Assembly (NCBI GenBank): GCA_038236735.1
Contig: JBBRZL010000001.1
Span: forward strand, 1 to 60,688
Reading direction: 5' to 3'
Source: Holophagales bacterium
GTDB taxonomy: Bacteria > Acidobacteriota > Holophagae > Holophagales > Holophagaceae
Length of the DNA: 60,688 nucleotides
A program made the position numbers and the translations under genes. Every line of letters starts with the position of its first letter. Positions within the stretch are counted from its first letter, which is position 1. Positions 29,172 through 37,649 of this stretch are shown piece after piece. A model generated the notes under the pieces. It saw only the letters and a program-made list of their open reading frames with translations, was not told the origin of the DNA and searched no databases.

Positions 29172-30935
29172 ATGCCACTCCTACGCCCCGACCTGTCCGA
29201 CCTGCCCGCCTATCAGCGGCCGCCTGAGCCGTCTGGAGGCCTGCGCCTGCACATGAACGAGGCCGCCAACGACTGGCCCGAAGTGGCCCGGAAGGCCCTC
29301 CTGGCGAGGCTTCGCGACCTGCCCTTCAACCTGTATCCAGAGCGCCAGGGCGAGCTCACTGAACGGCTGCGGAGGCGTCTGGGCGTGCCCGAGGGCGGCC
29401 TGCTGTTGGGGCCCTCCTCCGGCGCCCTCCTGGACCTGGTGGCCATGGCCGGTCTGACTCCCGGCGACGAGGTGGCCATTCCCGAGCCCGGTTTCAGCCT
29501 CTATCCCCTGCTGGTGCGGCGGCACGGCGGCCGGGTGCGGCCGGTGCCCCAGGGCACCGGCTTCCCCCTGGCGCCCTGGTTCCAGACCCTGGACTGCCGC
29601 CAGATCTGGCTCACCCTGCCCAACAATCCCACGGGAGCATGGGTTGCTCCGGCGGTGCTGGAGCCCCTGCTGGCCGCGGCGGCGGCCCAGCCCGATCCCC
29701 CCCTGGTGGTGCTGGACGAGGCCTATGCAGAGTTCGCCCCGGCCACCCACCGCCTCGCCGTGGACCGCTATCCGAACCTCGTGTTGCTGCGCACCTTCAG
29801 CAAGGCCCTGGCCTCTGCCGCCTGGCGCCTCGGCTACCTGGTGGGCGATCCCACCCTGGTCGCGAAGCTCACCACCCTGCAGCTGCCCTACTCCCTGCCC
29901 GCGGCCAGCCTGGAGGCCCTGGACGTGGCTCTGGATTTCGCCAGCGAGTTCGAGGCCGTCGTGCGCGCCTTGCCTGAGCGCCGCGATCGCCTCGCCGCCG
30001 CTCTGCCCGCCCATCACACCGCTCCGAGCGCCGGCAACTTCCTGCACCTGTCGCCAGATCCCTCGAAGGTCCTGGAGGCCGCAGGCCTGAAGGTGCGCCG
30101 CCTGCCCGGCGCCGATGCCGCCCGCATCACCATTCCCACCGAGGAGGGCACGGCTCGCCTGGCCTCCGCTCTCGGCGCGACCCTGCCCGGTCCGGCGCCG
30201 AGACCGCGCCGGCGGCTGCTTGTCCTCGACATCGACGGCGTGCTCATCGACGCGGATCGCAGTTTCATGGAGGCCGTGGCCCGCGCCTTGGCGGAACTGC
30301 GTCCCACCCTGCCCTGGTCCGACGGGGCCTACCGCGCCTTCAAGCGCCTGGGCGGTTTCAATAATGATTTCCGCCTGACGGCCGGGGCTCTGGCCCTGGC
30401 CGAAACCAAAGGAGACGTGAACCTGCAACCGATCGTCGAGCAGGCCGTGGGCCGTGGCTTTCCGGAGCTGGAGGCCCGCATGCAGGCGCTCGAACCCCCG
30501 GCACAGGTAGTGGTACAGAAGCACTACGCCAACACCATCCACCTGGAGCGGCCGCTGGTGTCGCTGGCGGAACTCCAGACCACGGGCTGGGAGCTGGCGG
30601 TACTGACCGGTCGGCCCCCGGAGGAACTGGAACTGGCCTGGCGAGTGCTCGGCTTCCAGCTGCCCGCGGTCTGTGATGCGGCCCCTCACCTCCGCAAGCC
30701 GGAACCTGCAGGGCTGCTGCAACTGGCGGACGCCTTCCGAGCCGAGGAGATCCTCTTCGTGGGCGACACCGTAGACGATGCCGGCTGTCTGCGGGCCGCT
30801 GCGGCCCAGCGGCCGGAGTTCCAGTGGCGCTTCGCCGCCCTCGGGCCGGACCGCGCGCGCTTCGTTTCGCCAGCAGATGTCCAAGCCGTCAGCCTGCGCG
30901 ACCTGCTGCCAATCTTGAACCAGGAGCTGCCATGA
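29172..30935 (+). CDS. hisC: Histidinol-phosphate aminotransferase fused to a HAD phosphatase (probable histidinol-phosphatase)
   Basis: NNPTG, DEAY, LRTFSKA; then LDIDGVLID, GGFNND, LTGRP, KPEP, GDTVDD. Confidence 0.88.
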   Translation: MPLLRPDLSDLPAYQRPPEPSGGLRLHMNEAANDWPEVARKALLARLRDLPFNLYPERQGELTERLRRRLGVPEGGLLLGPSSGALLDLVAMAGLTPGDEVAIPEPGFSLYPLLVRRHGGRVRPVPQGTGFPLAPWFQTLDCRQIWLTLPNNPTGAWVAPAVLEPLLAAAAAQPDPPLVVLDEAYAEFAPATHRLAVDRYPNLVLLRTFSKALASAAWRLGYLVGDPTLVAKLTTLQLPYSLPAASLEALDVALDFASEFEAVVRALPERRDRLAAALPAHHTAPSAGNFLHLSPDPSKVLEAAGLKVRRLPGADAARITIPTEEGTARLASALGATLPGPAPRPRRRLLVLDIDGVLIDADRSFMEAVARALAELRPTLPWSDGAYRAFKRLGGFNNDFRLTAGALALAETKGDVNLQPIVEQAVGRGFPELEARMQALEPPAQVVVQKHYANTIHLERPLVSLAELQTTGWELAVLTGRPPEELELAWRVLGFQLPAVCDAAPHLRKPEPAGLLQLADAFRAEEILFVGDTVDDAGCLRAAAAQRPEFQWRFAALGPDRARFVSPADVQAVSLRDLLPILNQELP

Positions 30936-34262: not shown

Positions 34263-35230
34263 TGCCCGTCCGCACGCCGCACTTTCCCGACCTGCTGTTC
34301 AGCTCCGCCGCCCGGCTCCGGCGCTGGGAGGACGCCCTCATGGGCCTGCTCGCCGCTCACGGCTATTGCGAACTGCATCCCTCCCTGGTGCTGCGGGAAC
34401 CCGCGCCCGACGGGGCCCTCCGCTTCTTCGATGGCGACGATCTGGTGGCGTTGCGCTGGGATTTCACGGTAGCCCTGGCCGGCCTGCTGGCCAAGGGCTT
34501 TCCCACCCCGCCACCCCGCCTCTCCTATGCCGGCGCCGTGTTCCGTCGTGCGGTCCAACCCTGGGAGGCGGTGGAGCGTTTCGAGGTGGGCTGCGAGCGC
34601 ATCCAGCCGGAGGGAGAACCTTCGGGCGAAGCCGACGTGGAACTGGCGCGCCTGCTCATGGCCATCCCCGGCATCCTCGGGCTGAAGAGCGCCATCCTGC
34701 ACCTGGGCAACGCGGCGCTGGTGCGTCGGCCCCTGGAAGCGGAAGGTTTGTCAGCGGAGCTTTCCAACGCGGTGGTGGCGGCTCTCTCCCGGCGTTCGCC
34801 CCACCGGGTGCGGGAGGTGCTGGACGGCCATGCCGCCGCGCTGCGGCTCTCGGCCCACGCCGAGGCGCTGCTCTCCGAGCTGGACGGCCCCGGTACCCTC
34901 GTCGCGCTGGAAGCCAGCCCCTACGCGGAACTGCTGCAAGCTGAGCGGGCCCAGATGGACCGTGCCCTCAAGGCCCTGCTGCCCCTGCTGCCGCCCAATC
35001 TGGAGCTGCGGGTGGACCTCGCCGACGTGGCCGGCCTCGACTTCTACACGGGACCGACCCTGCGCCTCTGGGCCCCGGGCGCCCAGCAGGAGCTGGCCGC
35101 GGGCGGCCGCTATGACCGCCTCTTCCCCGGCCTGGGCCGACCCTGGCAGGCGGCGGGGTTCTGCGTGCGCCTGTCGCGCCTCCTGGACCTGGCTGAAACC
35201 CGGCCCGACCTCTTCGAGGAGCCCCGATGA
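34262..35230 (+). CDS. hisZ: ATP phosphoribosyltransferase regulatory subunit
   Basis: HisRS-like ALR.DFT, Y.G.VFR, FYTG, GGRYD; adjacent to a short hisG. Confidence 0.88.
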   Translation: MPVRTPHFPDLLFSSAARLRRWEDALMGLLAAHGYCELHPSLVLREPAPDGALRFFDGDDLVALRWDFTVALAGLLAKGFPTPPPRLSYAGAVFRRAVQPWEAVERFEVGCERIQPEGEPSGEADVELARLLMAIPGILGLKSAILHLGNAALVRRPLEAEGLSAELSNAVVAALSRRSPHRVREVLDGHAAALRLSAHAEALLSELDGPGTLVALEASPYAELLQAERAQMDRALKALLPLLPPNLELRVDLADVAGLDFYTGPTLRLWAPGAQQELAAGGRYDRLFPGLGRPWQAAGFCVRLSRLLDLAETRPDLFEEPR

Positions 35231-35868
35231 GCCACAGTTCCCTGCTCATCGCCTTCCCCAAGGGCAGGCTCGGTGACGAACTGGTGCCGAAGCTGGTGGG
35301 CACACCACTCGCGCTGGACGCCGAGGCCCTGAAGTCGCGCGTGCTGCGCATTCCCACGGCCCTGCCCGGAGTCTCGGCCCTGCTGCTCAAGGGCGCCGAC
35401 CTGCCGCGCTATGTGGCAGCCGGGGTGGCTGCCCTGGGCATTGTGGGTTCGGACACCCTGGACGAGATGGACATGGACCTGCTTGAACTGGCGGATCTGG
35501 GCTTCGGTGCCTGCCGGCTCTCACTCTGCGCCCAGGTCGGCGTCACGCTGGACGCGCTGCGCGCCAGGCCCCACCTGCGCCTGGCCACCAAGTTCCCCAA
35601 GGCCACCGAAGCCTGGCTCACCCGGGAGGGCCTCACCGCCGAACTGGTGCCCCTCAGCAGCAGCGCCGAACTGGCCCCGTTGCTGGGCCTGGCGGATGCC
35701 ATCGTGGATCTGGTGCAGACCGGCGGCACCCTGCGGGCCCATGGCCTGGTGGAGACCCTGGTGCTGGGTCGATCCTCCGCCCGCCTGGTGGCCGCCCGCG
35801 GCGCCTACCTCAGCGAACCCGGTCGCATCCGGCCCCTGGCGGACCTGCTCATTGCGGCACTGCGGTAG
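35227..35868 (+). CDS. hisG: ATP phosphoribosyltransferase, short form
   Basis: PKGRL, DL.FG.CRL, ATKFP, ELAP..GLADAIVDLVQTGGTLRAHGL; 213 aa. Confidence 0.95.
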   Translation: MSHSSLLIAFPKGRLGDELVPKLVGTPLALDAEALKSRVLRIPTALPGVSALLLKGADLPRYVAAGVAALGIVGSDTLDEMDMDLLELADLGFGACRLSLCAQVGVTLDALRARPHLRLATKFPKATEAWLTREGLTAELVPLSSSAELAPLLGLADAIVDLVQTGGTLRAHGLVETLVLGRSSARLVAARGAYLSEPGRIRPLADLLIAALR

Positions 35869-35965
35869 CCAGACGATCTGTGCAGTCAGGTCCTTCGAGA
35901 TTGTCATGGCTGTGTCTCATGGGTGGATAGCCGAGCGGTTGTGGCAAGATCTGCCAGGAGTTCCC

Positions 35966-36625
35966 ATGACCAGCCACCGCCACTCCATGCTTCCCCTGCT
36001 ACTGGTCCCCAGCGCGCTTCACGGCCAGGTGCCTGCCCGCCCGCCCCAGCCAGTCCGCCCACCTCTCATGGCCCCAAGCCCTCGCCCGGGCGCCCCGGTC
36101 ATGAGCCCATCCGATCAGGCGCGGCTCGCGGACCTAATGGCCCAGCACCACCGGGTGAAGGCTCGGCTGAGCCCGGAGGAGCAGGCCGACCTGGATCGCC
36201 TGACCGCCACGGTGAAGCGCCAGCTCTTCGCCCGGCCCCTGCCGCTCAACCTGCTGTTGGCGGTCACGAATAGGGTGTCTGGTGACATAGCCGGTCTCGC
36301 GCCGCAAGAGGCTGCCAGCCTCGGGGAGTATGTCCTCGGCGGCATCGCCGCCGGCGGTGCGCTGGGGCAAGGAACTTCCACTGTTGGCGGAATGGCCGTG
36401 GGCACTGGTTCGGCGGCCATCGGCGCCGCCGCAGGTCACGGTTCGTCCCAGCAGTCCCTGCTGAACGCCACCAAGCAGATGCAGGAGATGCAGATGAGCT
36501 TCAACCTGCAGTACCTTCAGCTCCAGTCGCAGATGCAGAACGAGAACCGTTCCTATACCGCCGTCAGCAACATCATGAAGACCAAGCACGACACGGTGAA
36601 GAACAGCATCAGCAACATCCGCTGA
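35966..36625 (+). CDS. Hypothetical exported protein with C-terminal T3SS needle (SctF)-like helix
   Basis: AGGAG SD; signal-like MLPLLLVPSALHG-Q; C-terminus LQSQMQNENRSYTAVSNIMKTKHDTVKNSISNIR. Confidence 0.75.
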   Translation: MTSHRHSMLPLLLVPSALHGQVPARPPQPVRPPLMAPSPRPGAPVMSPSDQARLADLMAQHHRVKARLSPEEQADLDRLTATVKRQLFARPLPLNLLLAVTNRVSGDIAGLAPQEAASLGEYVLGGIAAGGALGQGTSTVGGMAVGTGSAAIGAAAGHGSSQQSLLNATKQMQEMQMSFNLQYLQLQSQMQNENRSYTAVSNIMKTKHDTVKNSISNIR

Positions 36626-36767: not shown

Positions 36768-37649
36768 TCAGCTTCCCCACCACAGCAACCGCCGCAGAAA
36801 CGGCACGCCCAGGTTGGCGTGGAGCGAATAGGACACCAGCAGGCCCAGCACGAAGCCCAGGCTGGCGCGGGTCAGGGACAGGGGCCGGGCCAGCCGGGGC
36901 CACAGTGCGCCCCAGCAAAGCCCCACCGCGGTGCCCCAGGCGAGGGCCCAGGCCGAGGGATACAGGACGAAGGCCAGGGCGAGCAGGAGCAGGGGCACGG
37001 CATTGGGCAGGCGCTCCAGCCGCTTCTGAATCCAGGGGAGACCAGCGACACCCACCGCCAGGGCGAAGAGGGCCAGGACCGGCGCCCAGGTGCTCTCCAG
37101 GTTGAAATCGAACCAGGACTTGGAGACCACCAGACCCAGCAGCGTCAGCGCCCAGAACGGGCCGAGGCGACGGGTAGAGGGCACCAGCGGTTGGCCTTCG
37201 GGCCAACGGTTGAATCCGCCCAGGCAGGCCGCCAGGCCCGCGCCGAGGAAGGTGAGGACAGGATGCCAGCTGGCCGCGAAGAGCCAGGCCGCGATCCAGA
37301 GCCAGAGGCCCAAGCCAGCGCCCTCCCGGGGGACCGAGCGGACCACCAGCAGCAGGCCCAGGCCCAGCAGCGCACAGAGCGCAGCCAGCCCCAGGTGGCG
37401 GGTGTCCCAGAAGCCCAGGTTCAGGCTCCGGGCCAGGGCCAGGGCGCTCAGCAGGGCCAGCACTCCGGCCACGCGCAGGGCGGTTTTTCCCGACAGCCAG
37501 GGCAGGAGTCGACAGAGCCGGTCCATCACGGGCAGCGCCAGGATCGGCAGGGCCATGAGCAGGGTGGCCGGACGGTTCAGGTCCAGGCGATACAGGGTGA
37601 GCATCTGGAACAGGCAGCCGAGGTAGAGGAAGAGCCAGATCGCGTTCAT
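36768..37649 (-). CDS. Multi-pass membrane protein of unknown function
   Basis: Leu/Ala/Trp-rich with many hydrophobic segments; ATGA-coupled to the upstream gene. Confidence 0.75.
   Translation of the reverse strand: MNAIWLFLYLGCLFQMLTLYRLDLNRPATLLMALPILALPVMDRLCRLLPWLSGKTALRVAGVLALLSALALARSLNLGFWDTRHLGLAALCALLGLGLLLVVRSVPREGAGLGLWLWIAAWLFAASWHPVLTFLGAGLAACLGGFNRWPEGQPLVPSTRRLGPFWALTLLGLVVSKSWFDFNLESTWAPVLALFALAVGVAGLPWIQKRLERLPNAVPLLLLALAFVLYPSAWALAWGTAVGLCWGALWPRLARPLSLTRASLGFVLGLLVSYSLHANLGVPFLRRLLWWGS

What the first reader, a model, noticed from the sequence alone, without database searches (positions are those of the whole stretch)
35966..36625. Orphan exported protein ending in a type III secretion needle-like helix
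Seen: a 219-aa ORF with its own SD inserted after hisG. It has a signal-like N-terminus, a Pro-rich segment, a helical region, a Gly/Ala linker and the C-terminus LQSQMQNENRSYTAVSNIMKTKHDTVKNSISNIR. Known: the Salmonella needle subunit PrgI ends YQSKLSEYNLYRNAQSNTVKVFKDIDAAIIQNFR (recalled from memory). The two align without gaps at 11 of 34 positions, including S-N-x2-K-x3-D-x5-I-x-N-x-R at the extreme end, the helix that drives needle polymerisation. True SctF proteins are about 80 aa, have no Sec signal and sit in T3SS loci. No T3SS gene is in this 60 kb. Inference: a Sec-exported filament-forming protein that reuses the needle polymerisation module, or a decorated needle-like subunit for an apparatus encoded elsewhere. 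This is the best candidate here for an undescribed system.
Basis: partly seen in the sequence, partly recalled or inferred. Interest (0 to 1): 0.82.

Follow-up and report, generated by a model that had tools for sequence, protein, structure and literature searches.

The report
Exported mimic of predator injection needle
A sediment bacterium with no injection machine detected in its genome has a lone gene whose product ends in a near-copy of the likely needle subunit of predatory myxobacteria and starts with a predicted ordinary export signal; it likely acts as a decoy that jams a predator's needle, and its relatives point to the needle protein that myxobacteria were reported to lack.

Summary
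The 219-aa ORF is real. Its last ~60 residues belong to the type III secretion needle (SctF) superfamily: a needle profile built without it ranks it 2nd of 16,635 C-termini in its own genome. Close homologues sit at the needle position (gene, TPR chaperone, sctI, sctJ) in Myxococcota and Acidobacteriota T3SS loci. They include MXAN_2434 and MXAN_5654, the head genes of the two 'needleless' Myxococcus xanthus clusters. Outside those loci the tail ends signal-peptide proteins with interchangeable bodies in many phyla. It is an orphan, and 46 of 60 such genomes show no type III export gate. This genome shows flagellar export genes only. Some carriers keep just the last 16 residues, or also hold short VgrG, Hcp or needle pieces. 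Best reading (0.45): an exported needle mimic that caps or plugs a predator's needle. Export, binding and function are all untested. Pfam and NCBIfam do not call the tail SctF, and the predicted fold lacks the SctF hairpin.

The parts
35956..35960 (+). Shine-Dalgarno-like AGGAG, 5 nt before the ATG
   Evidence: sequence
35966..36625 (+). Whole gene, 219 aa (P0001)
   Evidence: 1341 homologues at E<=0.001
35966..36025 (+). Predicted Sec signal peptide, residues ~1-20; weak in this copy, cleaner in homologues
   Evidence: crude rule: 70 of 102 long homologues and 39 of 53 usable non-myxobacterial loci pass, against 1 of 142 needle proteins
36026..36100 (+). Pro-rich linker, unconserved
   Evidence: 13% mean identity over residues 1-45; low pLDDT
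36101..36361 (+). Four-helix carrier domain, residues 46-132; one of several interchangeable bodies; no clear fold match
   Evidence: pLDDT 90; best Z 5.8, no Foldseek hit; 44% mean identity; a similar-looking segment follows an esterase in P0454 (by eye)
36362..36445 (+). Gly/Ala linker; its end shares a short motif with the T3SS-locus genes of L007, L013 and L024
36446..36622 (+). Needle-like tail ('tail A'), residues 161-219; Q187, K205 and D209 align with the near-invariant needle columns
   Evidence: 89% mean identity over residues 172-219; one 58-residue helix in the model
35227..35868 (+). hisG, upstream neighbour (context only); its 3' flank carries other DNA in 5 of 5 genomes of the genus examined

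Best explanation
The gene encodes a four-helix carrier ending in a needle-family helix nearly identical to genes in myxobacterial type III secretion loci; it is predicted to leave the cytoplasm by Sec and likely works as a decoy subunit that would dock on a predator's needle and cap or plug it. Shown: homology to SctF, the T3SS location of the nearest homologues, orphan status, purifying selection on the tail, and no injectisome detected in this genome. Predicted: Sec export. Inferred: that the T3SS-locus homologues are the needle subunit; that the mature protein waits in the periplasm or at the surface; that its tail joins the tip of an incoming needle through the native helix contacts while the bulky body blocks growth or passage; and that the benefit is protection from contact-dependent predation. 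The C50 'tail B' protein would be a second decoy, modelled on the tip/filament protein of the same machine.
For: (1) The tail is held to a foreign template. 44-46 of 48 residues stay identical across phyla while 28-29 of 39-40 degenerate codons differ from Bacteroidota copies. 54 of 59 non-T3SS tails are nearest to the L007/L024 T3SS genes. (2) Bodies are interchangeable: four-helix, coiled coil, esterase, and ~1050-aa Ig/FG-GAP proteins; 135 of 137 tail matches end at the C-terminus. (3) No partner gene: among 80 loci plus the window, the only neighbour cluster shared across distant genomes is the myxobacterial T3SS cluster. (4) Patchy: 3 of 49 genomes of the genus, one a 36-codon remnant; 2 strong hits in 301 Bacteroidota genomes. 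(5) Two ~76-aa signal-peptide proteins keep only the last 16 residues (L179, L181), in genomes with no export gate found. That is too short for a needle subunit and matches the segment modelled in the chaperone groove. (6) Other carriers hold short pieces of attack machines: two VgrG stretches in L080 (E 2.7e-7); in P0460, 14 of 15 letters of an Hcp segment (whole-protein E 0.07) and a piece like the MXAN_2434 N-terminal part (E 3.7e-5 in a 175-protein set; profile E 2.6e-7). (7) Export gate found in 18 of 19 myxobacterial-type genomes but 14 of 60 others.
Against: There is no experiment on export, binding or protection. Points 5 and 6 come from other carriers: P0001's own body holds no other captured piece, and no other such protein was found in its genome. 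The nearest-template count is biased, because the collection scan used exact patterns from the tail. P0001 keeps the full ~60-residue helix and D209, the counterpart of MxiH D73/PscF D76, and PscF forms filaments by itself without chaperones (PMC6455054 passages), so self-polymerisation is possible. M. xanthus T3SS* is reported to lack a secretin, so its needle may never reach a prey. The tail tree is unresolved, and L007/L024 nest among exported forms, so the direction of transfer is not shown (quick tree). 14 of 53 non-myxobacterial loci fail the signal rule. Most genomes are incomplete MAGs.
Confidence: 0.45

Rival explanations
1. Self-assembling, T3SS-independent filament: after Sec export the tails polymerise into a needle-like core with the bodies outside, possibly tipped by tail-B proteins.
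For: The full helix and Q187/K205/D209 are kept. Needle cores are built from the C-terminal helix with the N-terminus outside, and PscF polymerises in vitro (PMC6455054 passages). All 3 tail-A genomes of the genus carry tail B, against 3 of 46 others (Fisher p 0.001, kin not independent). Strong purifying selection.
Against: No conserved outer-membrane channel, chaperone or anchor next to the gene. Tail B was found in only 14 of 60 non-myxobacterial tail-A genomes with a single-sequence query and never as a neighbour. No proline turn (10 of 137 carriers against 97 of 142 needles), though T3SS-type copies lack it too (0 of 120). 16-residue versions cannot build a needle. One of the three co-occurring tail-A copies is a remnant.
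Confidence: 0.28
2. Portable clustering or anchoring tag: the captured helix oligomerises or binds a widespread envelope partner in the producer's own cell, tethering varied secreted domains.
For: Always C-terminal and fused to enzymes and Ig-like proteins; amphipathic end (moment 0.45).
Against: One copy per genome in nearly all non-T3SS cases seen, whereas sorting tags normally come in many copies with a dedicated machine (established knowledge). No conserved partner gene. It does not explain the near-identity to a foreign T3SS gene.
Confidence: 0.17
3. Substrate of a type III apparatus in the same cell (flagellum or an unassembled injectisome).
For: The genome has flagellar export genes and is 90% complete in 251 contigs.
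Against: One YscJ/FliF hit of FliF size and one FliI/YscN over cut-off, both among flagellar genes on C113; no PF09392 hit; no sctI-like gene. G509 (98% complete) has an intact copy and no export gate. Signal peptides are foreign to type III substrates.
Confidence: 0.05
4. Recently transferred fragment with no function.
For: Patchy; one remnant in G516.
Against: Amino acids are kept while silent sites diverge; 1341 homologues.
Confidence: 0.03

Closest known systems
T3SS needle subunit SctF (PrgI, MxiH, YscF, PscF; Pfam PF09392, TIGR02105)
   Same: C-terminal helix in register to the last residue, with Q/K/D kept; profile-profile probability 85% (tail A) and 93% (with T3SS-locus homologues added).
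   Different: 219 aa, signal-like start, extra domain, no T3SS locus, no proline turn, no Pfam or NCBIfam call.
Myxococcus xanthus 'needleless' T3SS* (MXAN_2434-2464) and T3SS(2) (MXAN_5643-5654); 'Myxo' NF-T3SS of Abby and Rocha 2012
   Same: Their head genes MXAN_2434 and MXAN_5654 carry the same tail: 21 and 25 of the last 40 residues identical to P0001; tail profile 56 and 83 bits.
   Different: No signal peptide, Gly-rich N-part, inside T3SS clusters. Papers state that these systems lack a needle (passages of PMC3459982, PMC10433427, PMC12075869).
Needle-chaperone complexes (PscE-F-G 2uwj, YscE-F-G 2p58, 7y6c; needle chains listed)
   Same: The myxobacterial tail models into the downstream TPR protein: score 0.93 against a best control of 0.01. 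The mark was reached by 116 of 157 solved complexes and 2 of 215 mismatched pairs; runs agree in >=87% of contacts; partner pLDDT >=72. The TPR resembles CdsG/SycD below cut-off.
   Different: The pass may come from likeness to these solved complexes. It was run on L063 proteins, not P0001. The upstream gene is not SctE by profile (E 0.47) and barely touches. Exported copies have no such neighbour.
Assembly blockers that mimic or poison structural subunits, e.g. prophage tail-assembly blockers (recalled, from no call)
   Same: Proposed logic: a stand-alone accessory gene spoils an attacker's polymer.
   Different: Those act in the cytoplasm on phage tails; no sequence link was tested; nothing equivalent for T3SS needles turned up in my searches.
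EspA/Bsp22-type T3SS tip filaments (names recalled)
   Same: Tail B has two terminal helices, and its T3SS form L089 lies divergent to a SycD/translocator-like operon.
   Different: Applies to tail B, not P0001; no EspA family hit.

Membership tests
SctF needle subunit | Match to PF09392/TIGR02105 above cut-off | tested here: not met
   No hit for P0001 or its tail; MXAN_2434 only E 0.017-0.019; 0 of 11 small T3SS-locus homologues hit
SctF needle subunit | Homologous C-terminal helix with conserved Q, K, D in register | tested here: met
   caution: the inner rod SctI scores 15.0 bits on the same profile, against 17.6 for P0001
SctF needle subunit | ~80-aa helix-turn-helix hairpin with a proline turn | tested here: not met
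   219 aa; single helix 161-218 in the monomer model; proline in the turn window in 10 of 137 carriers
SctF needle subunit | Encoded in an injectisome locus, no Sec signal | tested here: not met
   Orphan after hisG; flagellar export genes only; signal-like start
SctF needle subunit | Polymerises into a hollow helical filament | not testable with these tools
   needs EM
SctF needle subunit | Fold match to needle structures | tested here: inconclusive
   generic long-helix matches only
SctF role for the T3SS-locus homologues (MXAN_2434 type) | Needle position: upstream of TPR chaperone and/or sctI-sctJ, distinct from SctI | tested here: met
   9 of 9 non-FliF sctJ hits in 5 genomes have a tail-A match within 2.5 kb upstream; a separate SctI was seen in the 4 such loci read; 78-98-aa versions in Acidobacteriota loci
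SctF role for the T3SS-locus homologues (MXAN_2434 type) | Bound by an SctG-type TPR chaperone | tested here: inconclusive
   model passes but may reflect likeness to solved complexes; not shown by experiment
SctF role for the T3SS-locus homologues (MXAN_2434 type) | SctE co-chaperone upstream | tested here: not met
   the conserved small gene has no PF08988 hit (0 of 15) and no profile match
SctI inner rod | Match to the SctI profile | tested here: not met
   -0.1 bits
Sec-exported protein | Cleavable signal peptide | tested here: inconclusive
   crude rule passed narrowly; the family largely passes; the rule tried every Met, which inflates passes

The most novel reading that the evidence does not exclude
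Prey bacteria across phyla export captured pieces of predators' injection machines (needle, tip protein, Hcp, VgrG) as decoys, an undescribed class of envelope-level anti-predation defence; and the template is the missing needle subunit of myxobacterial T3SS (MXAN_2434/MXAN_5654), so T3SS* is not needleless.
Probability: 0.4. Interest if true: 0.93.

Novelty: categorically new. Interest (0 to 1): 0.82.

Why it matters
Either leading reading is undescribed in the papers searched: a decoy against bacterial injection needles, or a needle-derived filament built without a type III machine. The by-product is directly testable in a model organism. Papers through 2025 call M. xanthus T3SS* needleless and ask how it delivers cargo, yet the first gene of that cluster, MXAN_2434, carries a needle-family tail and is followed by a chaperone-like TPR gene (I put ~0.75 on its being the needle subunit). 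That would revise the scenario in which myxobacteria lost SctF. A natural needle-capping protein would also be a lead for T3SS inhibitors.

Tried and rejected
Pfam, NCBIfam and PDB sequence searches of P0001 gave nothing significant (HrpA pilin in 5 of 54 members, best E 0.0085). Fold searches of the whole model and of the four-helix domain gave no clear match. Atlas hits to clusters with 10-27% PF09392 scored under 0.9 and are leads only. The idea that the four-helix domain derives from tail-B proteins was rejected (E 0.034). The idea that the upstream myxobacterial gene is SctE was unsupported. The T3SS-locus profile searched against PDB ranked a needle-complex chain only 4th, at E 0.49. The tree: careful run unfinished; the quick tree groups all tail-A rows (99) but leaves 60 of 87 forks open. 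No RNA holder listed. No sigma-70 promoter or + strand terminator match. The empty-site test was inconclusive, because the hisG 3' flank differs in all five relatives. Ten paper searches found no description of this family or of a needle role for MXAN_2434/5654. The library omits most subscription papers; Thiery et al. 2022 was not seen and no supplements were read. I did not sort the export-gate hits in the 14 non-myxobacterial genomes into FlhA and SctV. L067, counted among 'others', looks T3SS-type.

Full report
Observation. The ORF at 35966-36625 encodes 219 aa with the described layout and an AGGAG five bases upstream. The 11-of-34 match to PrgI holds against the sequence printed from PDB (counted by eye). 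Standard libraries do not name the protein. It has 1341 homologues of similar length (best 120 seen). In 54 aligned members, residues 172-219 are 89% identical on average, 46-130 are 44%, and the rest 13-17%. AlphaFold gives a four-helix domain, a disordered linker and one 58-residue terminal helix; fold searches were uninformative.

Is the tail needle-like? I collected four PF09392 proteins and searched the representative library with them, keeping 142 of 150 hits of at most 130 aa. All 78 members tested hit PF09392, and their profile finds PrgI, MxiH, YscF and PscF. The 142-member profile holds no tail sequence. It ranks P0001 second of 16,635 C-terminal 62-mers of the genome (17.6 bits). 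First is another signal-peptide protein on contig C50 ('tail B', 21.7 bits); third scores 9.4. Over 187 distinct tails the median is 16 bits, against 2-3 for shuffled or reversed copies. Profile-profile probabilities are 85-86% for tail A, 96% for tail B and 93% when T3SS-locus homologues are added. Q187, K205 and D209 fall on the near-invariant needle columns. Against: SctI scores 15.0 on the same profile, Pfam misses even the small homologues (0 of 11), and the proline turn is absent. So the tail is a needle-superfamily homologue, but P0001 is not an SctF member.

Where homologues lie. A scan of one genome per species gave 155 places, of which 80 were kept. They fall into two kinds. In Myxococcota-labelled records the gene has no signal peptide at its first Met and sits before a TPR gene resembling CdsG/SycD (17 loci); where the cluster is intact, FliA, SctI, SctJ, SctN and SctO follow. 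A tail profile hits 209 of 251 Myxococcota genomes and an export gate is found in 225 (the tallies include unpublished G736, on which nothing rests; weak hits were not inspected). In five well-assembled genomes, 9 of 9 non-FliF sctJ hits have a tail match within 2.5 kb upstream, separate from SctI in the four loci read. Two such genes of G786 share 90% clusters with MXAN_2434 and MXAN_5654. In Acidobacteriota loci, versions of 78-98 aa stand before TPR, sctI and sctJ. A model puts the last 15 residues of a myxobacterial tail in its TPR neighbour: 0.93 against a best control of 0.01, with the mark reached by 116 of 157 solved and 2 of 215 mismatched pairs, contact agreement of at least 87% and partner pLDDT of at least 72. 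Like complexes are solved, so this shows likeness. Passages of PMC3459982, PMC10433427 and PMC12075869 state that these systems lack a needle; PMC10196010 passages give the cluster bounds.

The second kind, to which P0001 belongs, occurs in records labelled Acidobacteriota, Bacteroidota, Chlorobi, Proteobacteria, Chloroflexi, Actinomycetes and one archaeon. By a crude rule 39 of 53 usable loci and 70 of 102 long homologues have a signal-like start, against 1 of 142 needles; 4 of 20 myxobacterial copies pass, only from internal Mets. Neighbours are not conserved. An export gate was found in 14 of 60 of these genomes and 18 of 19 myxobacterial-type ones (groups set by me; mostly MAGs). The own genome (90% complete) has two partial export-gate hits at contig ends that overlap like one split gene, one FliF-sized ring gene and one export ATPase, all among genes I recognised as flagellar from their translations. 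G509, 98% complete, has an intact copy and no gate. The gene is in 3 of 49 genomes of the genus, one as a 36-codon remnant. Tail B is in 6 of 49, including those three, but in only 14 of 60 other carriers.

Mechanism. The tail is 44 of 48 identical to T3SS genes of L007/L024. It stays 43-46 of 48 identical across phyla while silent sites diverge. Bodies vary from coiled coils to an esterase and ~1050-aa Ig/FG-GAP proteins. Two small signal-peptide proteins keep only the last 16 residues. Other carriers hold short VgrG, Hcp or needle N-terminal pieces, the Hcp match being statistically weak. An orphan, patchy gene held to a foreign template on exchangeable scaffolds is what a decoy should look like. 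I infer Sec export, docking of the tail on a predator's needle, and blocking by the body (0.45). The filament reading (0.28) rests on the kept helix and D209 and on PscF self-assembly (PMC6455054 passages), but lacks any linked export or anchor gene. Weak points of the decoy reading: P0001 has no other captured piece, the scan favoured close variants, the direction of transfer is unresolved, and M. xanthus T3SS* reportedly has no secretin.

Novelty. Ten paper searches found no description; five papers were read as passages only and no supplements were read. Earlier scan notes on exported orphan Hcp and tail-tube proteins suggest a wider pattern; they are unchecked leads. Verdict: real, undescribed in what I could search, function untested; interest 0.82.

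Noticed in passing
L162:8708-9274 and L163:12137-12601 (G786); P0407, P0398: Head genes of both Myxococcus-type T3SS clusters (90% clusters with MXAN_2434 and MXAN_5654) carry tail A: candidate needle subunits of systems published as needleless.
   Followed up: yes
G000:C50:11775-13667 (L081:2776-4668): 631-aa signal-peptide protein with a second needle-superfamily tail ('tail B'); its helical part matches the T3SS protein L089 (E 1.6e-17). Relatives hit PF09392/TIGR02105 weakly.
   Followed up: partly
G062 (L166, L167) and G061: 35 and 12 tail-B matches, mostly in 500-1400-aa ORFs; the two read in L167 are each followed by a small gene (one a TPR-profile hit); the canonical copy lies divergent to a SycD/translocator-like operon. 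G062 also has tandem tail-A genes (L024).
   Followed up: partly
P0456-P0463, L080, L180: Secreted mosaic proteins studded with short repeated peptides, some matching VgrG, Hcp or the myxobacterial needle N-part; two look like protein-kinase motifs (recalled, untested).
   Followed up: partly
L179:1321-1548, L181:1501-1857: ~76-aa signal-peptide proteins ending in only the last 16 tail residues, in Bacteroidota genomes with no export gate found.
   Followed up: partly
L185-L201: Acidobacteriota T3SS loci with 78-121-aa needle-like genes that Pfam misses; L190, L197 and L198 carry a second short needle-like gene upstream.
   Followed up: partly
L126, L127: Tandem pairs of tail-B-like genes in two large genomes of the same class.
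   Followed up: no
L119 (G516:C49:5601-5711): Tail A survives only as a 36-codon remnant identical in protein sequence to the window's.
   Followed up: partly
L017:2537-2935: Second signal-peptide gene directly after a tail-A gene, with a helical C-terminus scoring 7.6 bits on the needle profile.
   Followed up: no
window 35869-35965 and L172-L176: The 3' flank of hisG holds different DNA in each of five relatives: a variable site.
   Followed up: partly
window 36768-37649 (-): 293-aa multi-pass membrane protein converging on the gene, no Pfam hit.
   Followed up: no
window 29172-30935: 587-aa hisC-like ORF apparently fused to a HAD-type phosphatase domain (recognised by eye).
   Followed up: no
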